A DNA stretch of 63,955 bases, counting the filler, from Bacteroidales bacterium (GTDB lineage: Bacteria; Bacteroidota; Bacteroidia; Bacteroidales; CAIWKO01): assembly GCA_035389045.1 (NCBI GenBank). It is 7 parts of 7 records of this genome, joined end to end, with 100 filler letters (N's around TTAATTAATTAA, not from the genome) between each part and the next. Parts side by side here need not be neighbours in the genome. Positions count along the whole stretch, not along the records: positions 1 to 12,466 come from DAOORA010000096.1; positions 12,567 to 21,838 come from DAOORA010000102.1; 5 more parts are not named here. One strand, given 5' to 3'. The position numbers were made by a program. This document shows positions 3,001-12,969 of the stretch, piece after piece. Numbering within the stretch: the stretch's first letter is position 1; each line of letters begins with the position of its first letter.

Positions 3001-6000
3001 GGGTATAAAAAACAAATAAACCATTAGTAATCAAAACAAAACGAAACACCTATGGAAAAAGAATTGAAATCACAGGGCAGATGCCTTTACTGTGATCAGA
3101 TGTTCATGCAAAAAGGAATAGGTAAACATCTGACCGGACACCTGACTGAAATGGAAAAAGCAGACAAGGACAAGCCCACTCAGGCCTACGTTCACATAGT
3201 AGTGGAGGCCTGGGAAATGTTTTACACCTCCTGGTAAGGGGCGATGCAGAAATGGTGGTCATTGATGGTTTTCTGAAAGACATCTGGCTTGAATGTTGCG
3301 GGCATATGAGCTGTTTCAGAAATACAAATTTTGAAATCAGTAAGAGCCAAAAGGTAGGAAATGTTTTTATGTCCCGTGCTAAAATAGTTCACGATTATGA
3401 TTTTGGAGATACTACGAGAGTGATGTTACACGGATTGAAAAGTTACCAGTTGAACCTGAAAGAAAAAACAATACTGCTCTCGCGAAACGAACCCTTAAAA
3501 ATCATGTGTTCCATTTGCGGAAAGAAACCGGCCGTAAACCTTTGCACAGCATGTAATCAGGAAGATTATGCGTTTTTCTGCAAATCCTGCTCAAAAAAAC
3601 ACGAAAAAAAATGTGAAGATTTTGCCAACTATGCCTGTATGCCGGTGGTAAACTCTCCGCGTATGGGTGTATGCGGCTAAGAAGGAGGTGTTATTGACAC
3701 CGCCAGGGACGGGGTGTATTATAGGGAGCAATGATCCGTGTCAGGTCTGTACCAAAAGAGTGGCTGAAAAACAAATGTTTTTCAGCCCCTCATCATTAAA
3801 AACCGGGTTTATTGAGATATCAATGCACGAGTTTGAGTATTTGGCATTTTGACTCTTTCAATCCAGTAAATTCAAGTTTAAAAGTATACATCCCCGCTGG
3901 ATAGTTTTTTGCAGCGAATACAACCGAGTGTTTTCCAATCTGCTGATTTTCATCAACAAGTATTGATACCAGCTCACCTAAGACATTGTAAACACATAAT
4001 TTCACCATTCCGTTTTCAGGTAATGTATAATTTATGTCTGCTTTCTCATTAAATGGGTTGGGAAAAGCTGTAAACGACAAACCGGTTTCTACGTAATCAC
4101 CCTGAACAAACACCTTAGGCATTAACAAATAGATACCCTCGTTTTCATCTCCGTACTGATTCCCGATCACACCTGTTCCGCTTAAAAGGAAATCAATGTT
4201 TCCGCTTTTCTGACCAAAAAGCTTATGGAAGCCCATGATGATCAGATCATCAGCAGCAGCCAAATCGAAATGATTGGTAGTAGCGTAAAGCACCCTGATT
4301 ACTCCTTTTTCGTCTGTTACCAGCAGGTCATTGTCTTCGGCAATGATTTCCTCATAGGATGGGTTTATCTTAATAATGCCGGTTTTATTAACAGCTTTGG
4401 GTACATACACCGTTTCAAGCCGGTACTGATCATAGGGATAAGTTATTTCCAATCCTAAAGCCGAGAAATCGTTCATCTTTGAACTTATTTTCAACGGAAT
4501 TTCAAAATAATATGGATCATTGGTTGTGATAAGCTCTCCGGACGTAACGATGAAATCATCCTTCAGTGATTTCAGCCCTACCCAGGTAATAAGTGAATCA
4601 CGGTACCGGCTGCTCGATGCATTGTAATCGCCATAACAAACGGTTCTTAGTTTCACATTCATATCTTCACCGGACATGTTAATCATAGTATCAATTACGG
4701 GCCAGTTACCTTTTGGCAAATTGTAAGTTGTAGTATATGGAGACACAATCTTTGTCTTTATCCTGGCAATATCGATGGTATTTATCGTTTTACTATTATT
4801 TACATCTGCTGCTCTTTTATAAATTGCCGAGAAACATCTGGACGGATCCTGATTAGTATCACTTCCCACAAAATATTTCAACAGGGAAACATCAATAGCG
4901 TTGACATCGTTCCCCCACTGCATGGTATCAGGTGTAAATTTATCATAAGACAAAATGTAATTGCCATTTAATATATTATTAAACTGATAATTGCCGGCTG
5001 CATCACTGGTATCTCTGGCTATTTCAGTACCCGCCGGATGGCTCTTTAATATCACAATCACATTATCTATAATATACTTCGGCGCATTATATGTTGGATA
5101 ATTGGGCGCCGGACTTCCGGCATTGGCTCTACCGGTATAACTTGTTTTTCCGCTGATCGTATGCCCGATAGAAATTTTAACGGAATCAATAGTAATACAG
5201 CCATTATTATTAACAGTCAATATATATGTAGTTGCCGTTAAAGGCGATGCCAGTGGTTGACAAATATCCGGATTGTCCAAACCTGTTGCAGGATACCAGG
5301 AGCACATTCCAGGGCCGTTATTTGAGTCACCAAGTGGTAAGGCAGTGCCTGTAAATATGTTATCTGCTCCTGCTTCAGCAGCAGGCATTGCAATTACAGT
5401 TATTGTTTTTACGGCAATGTTTATGCAACCGCCAATCAAAACTGTATAGGTGATATCCGAACTACCCACTGAAATACCTGTTACTTGTCCTGTTAATGAG
5501 CCAACTGATGCAACACCGGGATTTGAGCTTGTCCAGGTACCACCGTTTGAAGTTGACGTCCATAATACGGATGAACCTGAACATATTGGTGTTATACCTG
5601 TAATGATCTGGACAACCGGTGCAGTAATTGTAACTGTTTTTATAGCTGTATTTACGCAACCACCTACTGTAACAGAATAGGATATCTCTGATGTTCCAGA
5701 CCCAATCCCTGTGACGATACCTGATAATGAATCTACGGTGGCCACATTGGGTAAGGAGCTTGCCCAGTTTCCTCCGGTAGTAGTGCTCGTCCAAACCGCT
5801 GTTGAACCTGTGCATATCGGTGTGTTTCCTGTAATCGTCTGGGGTATCGGGGCTGTAATTGTTAAAGATCGGGTAGCTGTATTCACACAACCGCCTGTTG
5901 TTACCGAATACGTGATATGTGTGGTACCCGCTGCCATTCCCGTTACCTGACCTGTCGCAATATCCACTGTTGCAACTGCAGGTGCGGCGCTTACCCATAT

Positions 6001-12000: not shown

Positions 12001-12969
12001 GTCGGACCAGTATATGGACTGACAACCCGTCGCCGTGGTTTTATTGAGGAAATTCAATTTACAAAGAACCCCGTCAATGACCAGGCCGAAGGATTCGGCC
12101 CAGGCAAAGGAAATAGCACGGATGTTCCCGTAACTGGCTTGTGCCACCGTAACCCCGGTAACACCGGCAAACCAGTCTGTTGTGCTGATGTATTTCAGAT
12201 GCGTCGTATCATACCGTATGGTAAACTGAAAGCCCGAAATATCATCGGGGTTGAAACCAGAAATCGAAATATCAACCGTGGTATTGCTGCCCGGCAAAAT
12301 ATTTGTCTGCGTCTGAATAGTGGCTGTCTGTGAATTGGAAGTCAGCACTGTAACGATCAGAATGAACAACAAAATTATTTTTTTCATAGGTTTAAATTTT
12401 TGTATCATTTATTATATTTTAATGAATTAATTTCAGCACCGCAGATTTACATTCATTCATGCACATNNNNNNNNNNNNNNNNNNNNNNNNNNNNNNNNNN
12501 NNNNNNNNNNTTAATTAATTAANNNNNNNNNNNNNNNNNNNNNNNNNNNNNNNNNNNNNNNNNNNNGCGAGCTGGGTTCAGAACGTCGCGAGACAGTTCG
12601 GTCCCTATCTGTTGTGGGCGTTGGAAATTTGAGAGCACCTGACTCTAGTACGAGAGGACCGAGTCGGACAAGCCGCTAGTGTATCTGTTGTGGCGCCAGC
12701 TGCATTGCAGAGTAGCTATGCTTGGATGAGATAAGCGCTGAAAGCATCTAAGTGCGAAACTCAGCTCAAGATGAGATTTCCTTTAAGGATCGTGGAAGAT
12801 TACCACGTTGATAGGCTGCAGGTGTAAAGGCGGTAACGTCAAAGCCAAGCAGTACTAATTATCCGTAACTTTCTGTATGCTGGCTTTTCTTGATTAACCC
12901 TTTATTGTATTTTCTTTCCCATATGATCATACCATACCTAAGATATTATGGTGACTTTTGCGGTGGTGT

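What a model noticed while it worked through the whole genome (the two positions that open the first line are those of the whole stretch)
3820..12387. Cohesin scaffolds and dockerin-bearing cargo on the type IX secretion system
Eight genes carry 15 cohesin modules (g03211 has six plus a T9SS C-terminal sorting domain; six others begin with a cohesin within their first 40 residues) and 16 genes carry a dockerin-like module, most of them T9SS cargo such as M4 peptidases, beta-helix, Kelch and lectin-like giants, none a recognisable glycoside hydrolase. I read this as a cellulosome-like assembly built on the Bacteroidota surface by T9SS: sorted scaffoldins display cohesins that capture secreted dockerin proteins, here a protease/adhesin complex. 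New would be a cohesin-dockerin system wired to T9SS and used for something other than plant cell-wall breakdown.
Evidence so far: pfam.tsv rows over the gathering cut: cohesins in g03211 (C96, 6 modules between residues 22 and 1362), g02273 (2), g02458 (2), g02457, g02444, g02432, g02361, g01315; dockerins of two sequence types: canonical-looking type B with two Ca-loop-like repeats (g00560, g00562, g02155, g02433, g02578, g02580) and type A (10 genes). Gene pair g02432 (cohesin + sorting domain, 344 aa) next to g02433 (SprB repeats + type B dockerin) at C50:2579-6655; g02457 and g02458 adjacent on C51. 10 of 16 dockerin genes and 7 of 8 cohesin genes have a Por_Secre_tail/CHU_C or NCBIfam T9SS sorting call. 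Cohesin is on record in 13 of 22 family genomes and 320 of 8803 Bacteroidales, dockerin in 948 of 8803 (relative [...]
(Added by a program. Inside this text positions count along the whole contig: they may not be those of the stretch shown here. "Call 12" and the like, gene names such as g00115 and contig names such as C1 are that model's own, and its searches are not shown. The text may have been shortened before it was handed on; [...] marks where a part breaks off. The agent that wrote the report below was given it as the finding of a first reader that could run no searches.)

Follow-up and report, generated by a model that had tools for sequence, protein, structure and literature searches.

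The report
Cohesin-dockerin network on T9SS surface proteins
A sludge Bacteroidales bacterium encodes a giant surface protein with six true cohesin modules, and about 48 secreted proteins end in a conserved dockerin-plus-cohesin tail, so it probably builds protease and adhesin complexes on its surface with cellulosome-type connectors.

Summary
The gene is real. Window 3820-12408 (-) encodes a 2862-aa protein (likely start 12387). It has a signal peptide, six cohesin+Ig units, about 11 Big_2-like repeats and a T9SS type A sorting domain. Its first cohesin folds confidently and matches solved cohesins (Z 18.3).

I find dockerin-like modules in 48 ORFs (39 type A, 9 type B) and 29 free cohesins in 15 ORFs.

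The cassette is a CnaB/SdrD-B-like sandwich with the dockerin inserted, then a cohesin-fold domain, then the sorting domain. The finding gene carries one itself.

Trans pairing has genetic support:
- All 9 type B genes lie next to a gene with free group II/III cohesins.
- Type A cassettes and group I cohesins occur in the same 9 of 22 relatives.
- At least four relatives keep a [type A cargo]-[small cohesin+sorting domain] gene pair.

Structure models hint weakly that the dockerin also contacts its own cassette cohesin. Binding is unproven. Cargo is peptidases, phosphoesterases and lectin- or adhesin-like giants, with no glycoside hydrolases. A sorting-domain-anchored scaffoldin was already inferred for Cloacimonadota, so this is a new variant of a known kind.

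The parts
3820..12408 (-). Whole ORF, 2862 aa plus stop. The likely start is at 12387 (Met 8).
   Evidence: identical 2855-aa database protein P0083
12328..12387 (-). Signal-peptide-like N-terminus (residues 8-27: MKK followed by a hydrophobic run).
   Evidence: Read directly from the translation. No predictor was run.
11914..12357 (-). Group I cohesin 1 (residues 18-165).
   Evidence: Pfam; local HMM 240 bits; AF2 model and VIA Z 18.3
11185..11628 (-). Group I cohesin 2 (residues 261-408).
10453..10899 (-). Group I cohesin 3 (residues 504-652).
9721..10167 (-). Group I cohesin 4 (residues 748-896).
8995..9435 (-). Group I cohesin 5 (residues 992-1138).
8254..8703 (-). Group I cohesin 6 (residues 1236-1385).
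5404..7971 (-). Stalk of about 11 Big_2 / NUP210-Ig-like repeats (about residues 1480-2335). Ig_3/I-set modules also follow each cohesin further upstream.
   Evidence: Pfam; repeat pattern read
4942..5181 (-). Cassette: N-terminal strands of the CnaB / SdrD-B / CarboxypepD_reg-like sandwich (about residues 2410-2489).
   Evidence: SdrD_B match 2447-2490. Boundaries are mapped by alignment A1 onto the model of paralogue P0002.
4732..4941 (-). Cassette: type A dockerin-like module inserted in the sandwich (residues 2490-2559).
   Evidence: Dockerin_1; local docA HMM 125 bits; one canonical Ca loop, DVNNSKTINTID
4609..4731 (-). Cassette: the two returning sandwich strands and the near-invariant G-D-x-N-x-S motif (about residues 2560-2600).
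   Evidence: A1 near-invariant columns G249, D250, S254; strands E230-234 and E239-245 in the P0002 model
4081..4563 (-). Cassette: cohesin-fold domain (residues 2616-2776).
   Evidence: Local casA HMM 248 bits. The equivalent part of P0002 matches solved cohesins at Z 7.5-8.9, top 17 rows. Profile hit to cohesin 6kg8_A, E 9.3e-5.
3823..4065 (-). T9SS type A C-terminal sorting domain (residues 2782-2862).
   Evidence: PF18962 28.8 bits and TIGR04183 23.2 bits, both over their cut-offs

Best explanation
The gene encodes a scaffoldin-like giant that is exported by the type IX secretion system and held on the cell surface. Its six type-I-like (group I) cohesins stand at the far end of an Ig/Big_2 stalk.

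The cohesins most likely bind, with calcium, the type A dockerin-like modules found in the C-terminal cassettes of 39 other T9SS cargo proteins. These cargo are M4, M14, C25, M43 and C39-like peptidases, metallophosphoesterases, and lectin-, propeller- and adhesin-like giants. The result would be multi-protein surface complexes.

A second tier is wired by gene order. Each of the 9 type B dockerin proteins is encoded next to a protein with free group II or III cohesins. Three of those partners themselves end in a type A cassette and could act as adaptors to the group I scaffoldins.

Each cassette also contains its own cohesin-fold domain. I infer that the dockerin can rest on it in cis, or on a neighbour's cassette, and exchange to a free cohesin.

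SHOWN: the domain identities, the counts, the fixed cassette architecture, the gene order, the co-occurrence, and the presence of the T9SS machinery.
INFERRED: every binding step, which dockerin pairs with which cohesin, surface retention, and the cis-to-trans exchange.
For: 1. GENUINE COHESINS. Pfam gives 6 stretches, E 8.6e-48. The model of module 1 matches solved type I cohesins at Z 18.3, rmsd 1.9 over 134 residues; the top 20 rows are cohesins and the next fold is Z 9.9.

2. DOCKERIN-LIKE MODULES. 41 of 42 six-frame matches are over the Pfam cut-off. The cassette profile A1 hits solved dockerins (8x39_A E 1.2e-8, 1ohz_B 2e-6, 2ccl_B 5e-6), a cohesin (6kg8_A 9.3e-5) and SdrD (5e-6). A three-helix module is predicted. 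A canonical 12-residue Ca loop is present in repeat 2 of 32 of 33 type A modules.

3. GENE ORDER. 9 of 9 type B dockerin ORFs are immediate neighbours of an ORF with free group II/III cohesins. 7 of the 8 ORFs with free group II/III cohesins are such neighbours (coordinates).

4. MATCHING TYPES. Type B cassette cohesins are closest to the group II free cohesins (hhalign E 4.9e-8). The C51 cassette cohesin is closest to the group III cohesins of its neighbour gene (1.2e-8).

5. CO-OCCURRENCE. Strong type A cassette matches (best E 1e-138 or lower) and strong group I cohesin matches (best E 1e-20 or lower) occur in the same 9 of 22 family relatives and in none of the other 13.

6. CONSERVED PAIR. 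A type A cargo gene directly followed by a 256-264-aa group I cohesin gene was found in 4 of 4 relatives' loci fetched. The G001 copy matches TIGR04183; the other three C-terminal tails only look like sorting domains by eye. Coordinates suggest the same pair in 2 more genomes.

7. T9SS CONTEXT. SprA 2707 bits, two PorU at 1341 and 1148 bits, PorV 496 bits. Sorting-domain matches are seen on most carriers.

8. CIS OR NEIGHBOUR CONTACT. The cassette-only paralogue P0002 folds with pTM 0.74 although its inter-domain linker is disordered. In a three-chain ESMFold2 job the sandwich+dockerin chain, as partner, scored ipSAE 0.37 against a best control of 0.02. The verdict was 'weak support'. That mark was reached by 116 of 157 solved complexes and 2 of 215 mismatches, but at 0.60 or under by only 18 of those 157 solved complexes and by both mismatches. 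Runs agree in at least 55% of contacts and the partner's pLDDT is at least 61. I used my own alignments and three chains, so these counts hold only roughly, and cohesin-dockerin complexes are solved, so the pass may be from memory.

9. RNA. Contigs from three metatranscriptome libraries are identical to parts of the gene, for example 907 nt at 3664-4570 with 0 differences. This is only a hint of transcription, because DNA can be present in such libraries.
Against: - No binding is shown for any pair.
- The first calcium loop is truncated in all 33 type A modules examined and in 8 of 9 type B modules. Pfam matches start at profile position 8-11 of 57. These are therefore not canonical two-loop dockerins.
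- In this genome, none of the 39 type A ORFs is the immediate neighbour of a group I cohesin ORF.
- The type A cassette cohesin is not detectably close to group I cohesins (hhalign E 0.074). The type B pattern of 'own cohesin resembles the partner cohesin' therefore does not carry over.
- The dockerin sits near the membrane-proximal end of its carrier, while the group I cohesins sit at the far end of long stalks. Same-cell capture needs flexibility or release of the cargo.
- The co-occurring genomes are close kin, possibly one clade, and the E-value thresholds were chosen after seeing the data. Co-occurrence may reflect shared descent only.
- The conserved small-cohesin pair is one orthologous locus, so it counts as one event.
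- The fixed spacing and about 60% identity of the cassette across unrelated cargo fit a structural stalk equally well.
Confidence: 0.5

Rival explanations
1. SELF-CONTAINED STALK. The cassette is a rigid, calcium-stabilised base for T9SS cargo. Its dockerin-like insert binds only its own cassette cohesin in cis. The free N-terminal cohesins then have other ligands, or act as plain adhesive or spacer modules, and no scaffoldin-cargo capture occurs.
For: - The dockerin lies at a fixed distance from the ORF end: 300-307 residues in 37 of 38 type A, and 271-277 in 8 of 9 type B.
- The whole cassette, not only the dockerin, is conserved at about 55-67% identity on unrelated cargo, both within and between genomes.
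- The dockerin is an insertion inside a CnaB / SdrD-B-like sandwich, a fold known for calcium-stabilised stalks. The sandwich aligns across model residues 68-250 with only 80-90 residues matched, and SdrD is hit at E 5e-6.
- The monomer folds with pTM 0.74.
- The complex job gave weak support for the sandwich+dockerin chain against the other chains: 0.37 against a best control of 0.02. That mark was reached by 116 of 157 solved complexes and 2 of 215 mismatches, but at 0.60 or under by only 18 solved complexes and both mismatches. Runs agree in at least 55% of contacts; partner pLDDT is at least 61. The counts hold only roughly here.
- One calcium loop is degenerate.
Against: - It does not explain why 9 of 9 type B genes neighbour a free group II/III cohesin gene.
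- It does not explain why cassette cohesins of type B match the sequence type of those neighbours.
- It does not explain why group I cohesins and type A cassettes share exactly the same 9 relatives, or why a small cohesin+sorting-domain gene follows a type A gene in several genomes.
The cassette is therefore not a general T9SS requirement.
Confidence: 0.25
2. HEAD-TO-TAIL COAT OR CELL-CELL GLUE. Every cassette has both a dockerin and a cohesin, so cassettes could bind each other in trans and chain the cargo into a basal surface mesh. The distal group I cohesins on long stalks could then grip cassettes on neighbouring cells, aggregating cells into flocs.
For: - The dockerin and cohesin in one cassette are joined by a linker predicted to be disordered (residues 256-271 below pLDDT 50), which allows domain swapping.
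- The cohesins sit at the distal N-termini of 1700-6400-aa proteins, and two of these have type B sorting domains followed by PorP/SprF genes.
- The DNA and RNA runs that hold the gene carry activated-sludge and digester labels.
Against: - No direct evidence exists.
- Prediction tools cannot separate cis from trans contacts here, and I could not inspect the model's contacts.
- The four cassette-only proteins (518-538 aa) have no obvious role in a mesh other than as fillers.
Confidence: 0.12
3. A TRUE CELLULOSOME for plant cell-wall or other polysaccharide breakdown, whose enzymes were simply not recognised.
For: - A multi-cohesin scaffoldin is present, with many dockerin-bearing secreted proteins.
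- Some cargo carry Laminin_G_3, CBM-like or CBM_2-like matches.
Against: - No glycoside hydrolase catalytic family was found in the 47 dockerin-bearing ORFs scanned, at E 1e-3 to 1e-5.
- Peptidases of five families and phosphoesterases were found instead.
- The scaffoldin has no CBM.
- Several cargo proteins have long stretches with no Pfam match, so unknown enzymes cannot be excluded.
Confidence: 0.05

Closest known systems
Clostridial cellulosome scaffoldins and their type I cohesin-dockerin pairs (for example C. thermocellum CipA, A. cellulolyticus ScaB)
   Same: - Tandem cohesins on one large secreted protein.
- The best structural matches of module 1 are type I cohesins: 5nrk_A Z 18.3, 3ul4_A 17.8, 1ohz_A 16.2.
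- Several sequence groups of cohesin and dockerin, and adaptor-like proteins that carry both, as in multi-tier cellulosomes. The tiering of cellulosomes is from my own knowledge.
   Different: - A Gram-negative host, with export and anchoring by T9SS sorting domains rather than SLH domains or sortase.
- No CBM and no glycoside hydrolase cargo.
- The dockerin has one canonical loop only, is inserted in a beta-sandwich, and is followed by its own cohesin.
Predicted cellulosome-like complex of Ca. Stygibacter (Cloacimonadota MAGs), PMC8542988
   Same: [quoted passage not shown] Like mine, it is inferred from sequence only.
   Different: - Their scaffoldin has CBM2/CBM3 domains, and the cargo includes GH18 and GH57.
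- The passages I read do not mention a dockerin+cohesin+sorting-domain cassette.
- It is a different phylum.
- I did not read that paper's supplements.
X-module-dockerin dyads of type II/III cohesin-dockerin systems (recalled from the literature; only the ScaA dockerin paper PMC3821032 appeared, as a search listing)
   Same: An Ig-like beta-sandwich is structurally coupled to the dockerin and is thought to stabilise it.
   Different: Here the dockerin is inserted within the sandwich chain. Strands lie before residue 147 and after residue 230 of P0002, so the two are not simply adjacent. Homology to X modules was not tested.
Non-cellulosomal cohesin-dockerin pairs of Clostridium perfringens glycoside hydrolases
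   Same: - Cohesins and dockerins join secreted proteins that are not cellulases.
- Their cohesins appear among the fold matches: 2w1n was the top Foldseek row for the cassette, and 2vo8, 2w1n and 2o4e are matches for module 1.
   Different: Those are Gram-positive proteins with single modules on enzymes. They have no multi-cohesin scaffoldin and no T9SS. Their function is recalled, not read here.
Neighbouring N-terminal-cohesin and C-terminal-dockerin giant proteins Cag_2037/Cag_2038 of Chlorochromatium (bioRxiv 10.64898/2026.03.19.712371)
   Same: An adjacent gene pair in an FCB-group bacterium, one gene with a cohesin and the other with a dockerin, both with long Ig stalks, and interaction inferred by modelling (passages read).
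   Different: - Export there is by a type I secretion system.
- It is a single pair, not a family of 48 cassettes.
- The dockerin is not described as part of a dockerin-cohesin cassette in the passages read.

Membership tests
Cohesin (PF00963), the six N-terminal modules | Sequence match over the curated cut-off | tested here: met
   6 stretches, 162.5 bits against cut-off 24.1. Each module scores 32.7-39.5 bits in the six-frame search.
Cohesin (PF00963), the six N-terminal modules | Flattened beta-sandwich (jelly-roll) fold of solved cohesins | tested here: met
   Model of module 1: pLDDT 90.1, pTM 0.85. VIA Z 18.3, rmsd 1.9, 134 of 143 residues against 5nrk_A. The top 20 rows are cohesins and the next fold is Z 9.9. 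Only module 1 was folded; modules 2-6 are 55-81% identical to it.
Cohesin (PF00963), the six N-terminal modules | Binds a dockerin | not testable with these tools
   Needs a binding assay. The prediction job is discussed under Best explanation and Tried and rejected.
Cohesin fold, the cassette domain after the dockerin | Fold and profile similarity to cohesins | tested here: met
   - P0002 residues 275-429: the top 17 VIA rows are cohesins, Z 7.5-8.9, about 125-135 residues aligned.
- Profile A1 hits 6kg8_A at E 9.3e-5.
- Type B version against the genome's canonical cohesins: hhalign probability 95.6%, E 1.3e-8.
- The type A version is weak by sequence alone: E 0.043. Z below 9 on a 518-residue model is moderate.
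Dockerin type I (PF00404) | Sequence match over the curated cut-off | tested here: met
   41 of 42 six-frame matches are over 22.9 bits, with the best at 35.9. For the finding gene: 22.9 on the whole protein, 26.0 on the fragment, 30.0 in six-frame. All are modest.
Dockerin type I (PF00404) | Two tandem repeats, each with a 12-residue calcium-binding loop followed by a helix (definition recalled from the literature) | tested here: not met
   A loose loop pattern matches only repeat 2 in 32 of 33 type A modules and never repeat 1. In type B it matches one repeat in 6 of 9 modules and neither repeat in 3 of 9. Repeat 1 keeps only the last five loop positions plus the helix. Pfam matches begin at profile position 8-11.
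Dockerin type I (PF00404) | Compact three-helix module | tested here: met
   Helices 160-171, 184-190 and 200-211 in the P0002 model, with block pLDDT 84-91. This is a predicted, not solved, structure.
T9SS type A cargo | C-terminal sorting domain | tested here: met
   PF18962 28.8 bits (cut-off 27) and TIGR04183 23.2 bits (cut-off 23) at residues 2782-2859.
T9SS type A cargo | Sec signal peptide | tested here: inconclusive
   The N-terminus reads MKK followed by a hydrophobic run. No signal-peptide predictor was available.
T9SS type A cargo | T9SS machinery encoded in the genome | tested here: met
   SprA 2707 bits, PorU 1341 and 1148 bits (two tandem copies), PorV 496 bits, all over their cut-offs. 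PorK/L/M/N were not searched.
Cellulosome (system) | Dockerin-bearing glycoside hydrolases, and a carbohydrate-binding module on the scaffoldin | tested here: not met
   No GH catalytic family was found in the 47 dockerin-bearing ORFs scanned. The scaffoldin has no CBM. Pfam only; no CAZy-specific scan was run.
Cellulosome (system) | Scaffoldin with several cohesins, plus many dockerin proteins in the same genome | tested here: met
   Six cohesins in this gene. There are 29 free cohesins in 15 ORFs and 48 dockerin-like ORFs.

The most novel reading that the evidence does not exclude
A lineage of sludge Bacteroidales has turned the cohesin-dockerin connector into a general surface-assembly code for T9SS cargo. 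Every member of a 48-protein set ends in a cassette that carries both halves of the connector. The dockerin switches from its own cohesin to that of a neighbour or of a stalked scaffoldin. The outcome would be a self-assembling, calcium-dependent protein coat of proteases and adhesins. The distal cohesins of this six-cohesin giant would then link coats between cells, giving floc formation.
Probability: 0.15. Interest if true: 0.85.

Novelty: new variant of a known kind. Interest (0 to 1): 0.62.

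Why it matters
Cohesin-dockerin pairs are the textbook connector of Gram-positive cellulosomes and a workhorse of synthetic biology. Here the same connector is tied to the Bacteroidota-specific type IX secretion system. It is expanded to about 48 cargo proteins in one genome and is used for peptidases, phosphoesterases and adhesin-like giants rather than glycoside hydrolases.

The cassette has three parts: a dockerin inserted in a beta-sandwich, then its own cohesin, then the sorting domain. I did not find this cassette described in the searches I ran.

If the pairings hold, three things follow:
- a set of new orthogonal cohesin-dockerin specificities that work on a Gram-negative surface;
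- a testable model of how T9SS cargo is organised after export;
- a possible protein basis for aggregation in wastewater flocs.

The gene-order pairs (type B with group II/III cohesins) name concrete constructs to test first.

Tried and rejected
1. COMPLEX PREDICTION. I sent three chains so that the dockerin-bearing chain could choose between cohesin 1 of this gene and its own cassette cohesin. In the control where the cassette cohesin was replaced and cohesin 1 was kept, the score was 0.02. That is no support for a group I cohesin to type A dockerin contact and, by the tool's own calibration, no evidence against it. No contacts were printed, so which chain the partner touched in the 0.37 runs is inferred only from that control.

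2. MODEL CONTACTS. I could not read coordinates or PAE of the AF2 models. The cis contact rests only on pTM 0.74.

3. SIX-FRAME PFAM SEARCH. It missed the cohesin of C50:2579-3613, later found at 30.0 bits. A whole-protein hmmscan of the first half of the 6431-aa C26 protein did not list Cohesin, although a 200-aa piece scores 39.9 bits. I therefore replaced Pfam counts by a census with local HMMs. Those HMMs were built from this genome's own modules, so members match by construction.

4. TANDEM REPEATS FINDER. It found nothing in the gene. The unit of about 730 nt exceeds its 500-nt period limit.

5. ORDER-WIDE SAMPLE. None of 300 other Bacteroidales genomes has the type A unit at E 1e-15 with this single query. 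That means 'not found in those searched', not 'absent'. Only 3 genomes of the own family were in that sample.

6. EARLIER FINDINGS of this scan were not open.

7. LITERATURE. The review by Peer et al. 2009 on non-cellulosomal cohesins and dockerins is not held, so I cite it only as a title in another paper's reference list. Prior description of Bacteroidetes modules there cannot be excluded.

8. READ LAYING. The stretch 4740-4967 has no cover in any of the four runs, and 5994-7000 has none in the three RNA runs. Since these are contigs, the gaps mean nothing. One RNA contig in each of two runs joins 4636 to 5000 through a diverged stretch of the same length; this is most simply a paralogous cassette.

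10. CONCERTED EVOLUTION of the cassette was considered and rejected. Paralogues within the genome are as diverged from P0002 (56-67%, apart from three near-identical cassette-only copies) as copies in other genomes are (50-67%).

Full report
WHAT IS AT THE COORDINATES

The window is not one stretch of genome. It is several small contigs joined by runs of N. Positions 1-12466 are one 12,466-bp contig, C96. One ORF runs on the minus strand from 12408 to 3820 and encodes 2862 aa. An identical 2855-aa protein is in the public collection (P0083).

Pfam gives:
- six Cohesin stretches (162.5 bits, E 8.6e-48), each followed by an Ig_3/I-set module;
- a run of Big_2 / NUP210-Ig-like repeats;
- a weak SdrD_B match at 2447-2490;
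- Dockerin_1 at 2501-2554, at exactly the cut-off of 22.9 bits;
- Por_Secre_tail at 2782-2849, at 28.8 bits.

NCBIfam TIGR04183 also passes its cut-off.

I folded cohesin module 1 with an alignment of the 11 related modules of this genome (A2). The model is confident (pLDDT 90.1, pTM 0.85). Against 48,161 representative solved chains, its top 20 matches are all cohesins. The best is Z 18.3, rmsd 1.9 over 134 of 143 residues, at 25% identity to a type I cohesin of A. cellulolyticus ScaB. The first other fold scores Z 9.9.

THE GENOME-WIDE PICTURE

Six-frame Pfam searches of the 4.46-Mb assembly give 24 cohesin matches, 20 over the cut-off, and 42 dockerin matches, 41 over the cut-off. That first look misses some modules. 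I therefore built HMMs from the genome's own modules and searched all 8390 stop-to-stop ORFs of 90 aa or more.

The census is:
- type A dockerin-like modules in 39 ORFs;
- type B in 9 ORFs;
- free cohesins in three sequence groups: 14 group I in 7 ORFs, 12 group II in 7 ORFs, and 3 group III in 1 ORF.

The six modules of this gene are group I. They are 52-83% identical to each other and 42-50% identical to those of four other ORFs.

Free cohesins begin within the first 80 residues of the open frame in 13 of these 15 ORFs.

THE CASSETTE

In fact both types are fixed:
- type A ends 300-307 residues from the ORF end in 37 of 38 cases; the exception is cut by a contig end;
- type B ends 271-277 residues from the end in 8 of 9 cases, and 245 in one.

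Alignments of the C-termini show one shared architecture for both types.

I folded a 518-aa paralogue that is little more than the cassette (P0002, C3:109277-110830) with a 30-row alignment. The result was pLDDT 79 and pTM 0.74. The model shows:
- Strands at 72-146 and again at 230-245 form a sandwich that matches CnaB / pilin, prealbumin-like and teneurin CarboxypepD_reg-like domains. It aligns over model range 68-250 with only 80-90 residues matched. The three-helix dockerin-like module at 150-225 is therefore an insertion inside that sandwich.
- A linker at 256-271 is disordered.
- Residues 275-429 have a cohesin fold. The top 17 rows are all cohesins, at Z 7.5-8.9.
- The sorting domain follows.

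Sequence profiles agree. The cassette profile hits solved dockerins (E 1.2e-8 to 5e-6), SdrD (5e-6), a cohesin (9.3e-5) and, weakly, a T9SS sorting domain (0.045). The type B cassette cohesin matches the genome's canonical cohesins at hhalign probability 95.6%. In one gene (C51:24406) the cassette cohesin is the best Pfam cohesin of the whole genome, at 55.9 bits.

The finding gene carries a type A cassette itself.

The dockerin-like modules are not canonical. Only the second repeat has a full 12-residue calcium loop, in 32 of 33 type A modules. The first repeat keeps the last five loop positions and the helix. A G-D-x-N-x-S motif just after the last sandwich strand is nearly invariant across both types. 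Its role is unexplained.

CARGO AND SECRETION

Type B carriers are:
- two M4 peptidases with SprB repeats;
- a SprB-repeat protein;
- three Laminin_G/GEVED giants, the largest 4660 aa;
- two Kelch plus beta-helix proteins;
- a beta-helix protein.

Type A carriers include:
- M14, C25, M43, M4 and C39-like peptidases;
- two metallophosphoesterases;
- FG-GAP, BNR/DUF5122 propeller, CARDB, Cleaved_Adhesin, PKD and Laminin_G proteins;
- four cassette-only proteins.

No glycoside hydrolase catalytic family appeared. The cassette therefore marks a subset of T9SS cargo, not all of it.

EVIDENCE FOR PAIRING IN TRANS

1. Gene order. All 9 type B ORFs are immediate neighbours of an ORF with free group II or III cohesins (coordinates). 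The loci are:
   - three paralogous loci of [Laminin_G giant, type B] - [about 1940-aa CARDB protein with an N-terminal group II cohesin] - [M4 peptidase, type B] on C7, C50 and C57. On C50 the third gene is a SprB-repeat type B protein that lies further downstream and has its own cohesin neighbour, listed separately below;
   - two [Kelch/beta-helix, type B] - [3-4 group II cohesins plus a type A cassette] loci on C39 and C44;
   - [SprB, type B] - [group II cohesin plus sorting domain, 344 aa] on C50;
   - [beta-helix, type B plus group III cassette cohesin] - [3 group III cohesins plus a type A cassette] on C51.
   With 8 such cohesin ORFs among a few thousand genes, the chance per gene is under 1% by simple arithmetic (my estimate, not a tool result). 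The paralogous loci reduce the count to about four independent cases.

2. Matching sequence types. The type B cassette cohesins are closest to group II (E 4.9e-8). The C51 cassette cohesin is closest to the group III cohesins next door (1.2e-8).

3. Co-occurrence. Among the 22 other genomes of the family, strong type A cassette matches (G001-G006, G014, G017, G021; 2 to 41 matches each) and strong group I cohesin matches occur in exactly the same 9 genomes. These are close kin and the thresholds were set after seeing the tables.

4. A conserved pair. In 4 of 4 relatives' loci that I fetched, a type A cargo gene is directly followed by a 256-264-aa gene with a group I cohesin. The G001 copy matches the T9SS sorting domain TIGR04183; the other three tails only look like sorting domains by eye. 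Coordinates suggest the same pair in two more genomes. In this genome the corresponding slot, after C37:17227, holds a tyrosine recombinase instead. None of the 39 type A ORFs here is the immediate neighbour of a group I cohesin ORF.

EVIDENCE FOR A CONTACT INSIDE THE CASSETTE

The monomer's pTM of 0.74, with 450 ordered residues in three domains and a disordered linker, suggests that the model places the domains confidently against each other. I could not inspect contacts.

In a three-chain ESMFold2 job the chains were cohesin 1 of this gene, the cassette cohesin, and the sandwich+dockerin as partner. The verdict was weak support: 0.37 against a best control of 0.02. That mark was reached by 116 of 157 solved complexes and 2 of 215 mismatches, but at 0.60 or under by only 18 solved complexes and by both mismatches. 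The runs agree in at least 55% of contacts, and the partner's pLDDT is at least 61. The counts hold only roughly for my own alignments and for three chains, and the pass may be from memory of solved cohesin-dockerin complexes.

HOW FAR THE CASSETTE SPREADS

The sandwich-dockerin-cohesin unit, searched without its sorting domain, finds 80 clusters at E 1e-30 among 1.84 billion representatives. In the full-length rows it ends about 90 residues before the protein's end, for example P0203 at 826 of 916 and P0083 at 2765 of 2855. Weaker full-length relatives at about 30% identity also exist in that list.

Named hits are Bacteroidales or Paludibacteraceae MAG proteins, annotated only as sorting-domain or cohesin-domain proteins. 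None of 300 evenly drawn other Bacteroidales genomes has the unit at 1e-15 with this query.

Multi-cohesin relatives of this gene are few. P0084 and P0085 are 1747 aa with 53-55% identity, P0088 is a further relative, and three more listed proteins carry a Pfam cohesin annotation. Most of the remaining rows carry Ig-domain annotations and no cohesin.

EXPRESSION AND HABITAT

Contigs from three metatranscriptome libraries labelled activated sludge are identical to parts of the 3' third of the gene. The longest is 907 nt at 3664-4570 with 0 differences. DNA can be present in such libraries, so this is only a hint.

WHAT IT MOST LIKELY IS

I rate as most likely (0.5) a tiered cohesin-dockerin network on T9SS cargo, with this gene as a six-site, surface-anchored scaffoldin for type A cassettes. 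Gene-linked type B / group II-III pairs form a second tier, and three cohesin-plus-type-A proteins act as adaptors.

The main rival (0.25) is that the cassette is a self-contained calcium-stabilised stalk whose dockerin only ever binds its own cohesin. That fits the fixed geometry and the models but not the gene order, the type matching or the co-occurrence.

A head-to-tail coat or cell-cell glue (0.12) is the boldest reading not excluded. A true polysaccharide cellulosome is unlikely (0.05).

COMPARISON WITH WHAT IS KNOWN

The system works like a cellulosome scaffoldin system, but it fails two defining features of a cellulosome: glycoside hydrolase cargo and a CBM on the scaffoldin.

Relevant literature:
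- Dockerins in rumen Bacteroidetes and non-carbohydrate cargo have been noted before (PMC6487960, passages read).
- A scaffoldin with tandem cohesins and a T9SS C-terminal domain, plus dockerin peptidases, was inferred for Cloacimonadota (PMC8542988, passages read).
- An adjacent cohesin/dockerin pair of giant proteins was modelled in Chlorochromatium (bioRxiv 10.64898/2026.03.19.712371, passages read).
- A 2018 paper on a rumen Bacteroidetes lineage with T9SS-linked cellulases reported no cohesins or dockerins there (PMC5831590, passage read).

Three full-text searches listed no paper whose title or abstract describes three things: the dockerin-in-sandwich plus cohesin plus sorting-domain cassette, its expansion to about 48 genes in one genome, or the gene-order pairing. 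I did not open every listed paper, no supplements were read, and the 2009 review of non-cellulosomal modules is not held.

I therefore class this as a new variant of a known kind.

Noticed in passing
G000 contig C13:24939-33094 (outside the window): Two full-length PorU sortase paralogues stand in tandem (1341 and 1148 bits), directly followed by PorV (496 bits). A duplicated T9SS sortase might serve different cargo classes, for example cargo with and without the cassette.
   Followed up: no
G000 C7:28135-33963, C50:12789-18665, C57:4931-10801 (loci L115, L103): Three paralogous proteins of about 1940 aa have an N-terminal group II cohesin and 4-7 CARDB stretches. Pfam and NCBIfam find no T9SS sorting domain in the two copies scanned (C57 was not scanned). 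All three tails end in an aromatic residue (…GLGYIIEY / …GLGYLVQYK). How they are anchored is unknown.
   Followed up: partly
G000 C37:15077-16372 (L118:578-1873): A tyrosine recombinase-like gene (weak XerA/XerD matches) sits directly downstream of the 1339-aa type A gene C37:17227-21243. At that position relatives have a small cohesin gene, so a mobile element may have replaced it.
   Followed up: partly
G000 C26:49040-52309 and C51:6304-7254 (L116, L117): Both group I cohesin giants with CHU_C (type B) sorting domains are followed by PorP/SprF family genes (258 and 216 bits). After C26 there is also a PorE/OmpA-like gene. This is the usual partner arrangement for type B cargo.
   Followed up: yes
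window 659-2723 (+): A 445-aa AAA_21/AAA_15 ATPase (AbiEii-like / SMC_N-type) is followed, with a 32-nt overlap, by a 252-aa ORF that has no Pfam match. This is possibly a two-gene defence or toxin-antitoxin-like pair and is unrelated to the finding.
   Followed up: partly
window 12467-63955: The rest of the window consists of other small contigs (C102-C106, C115) joined by pairs of 44-N runs. Features that cross those joins are artefacts.
   Followed up: yes
Alignment A1 columns at P0002 residues 249-254; window about 4640-4660 (-): A near-invariant G-D-(V/Y)-N-(G/A)-S motif follows the last sandwich strand in both cassette types. It looks like the first half of a dockerin calcium loop, which is the half missing from repeat 1. 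Whether it completes that site in 3D could not be checked.
   Followed up: no
G000 C3:109277-110830, C9:52647-54203, C5:120-1679, C20:41788-43401: Four near-identical (90-96%) cassette-only proteins of 518-538 aa have just about 65 N-terminal residues, predicted disordered, before the cassette. They would be cargo-less connectors or caps.
   Followed up: partly
window 4636-5000: In two RNA-library runs one contig matches on both sides of this stretch but is diverged, at the same length, in between. This is most simply a transcript or DNA of a paralogous cassette or a strain variant.
   Followed up: no
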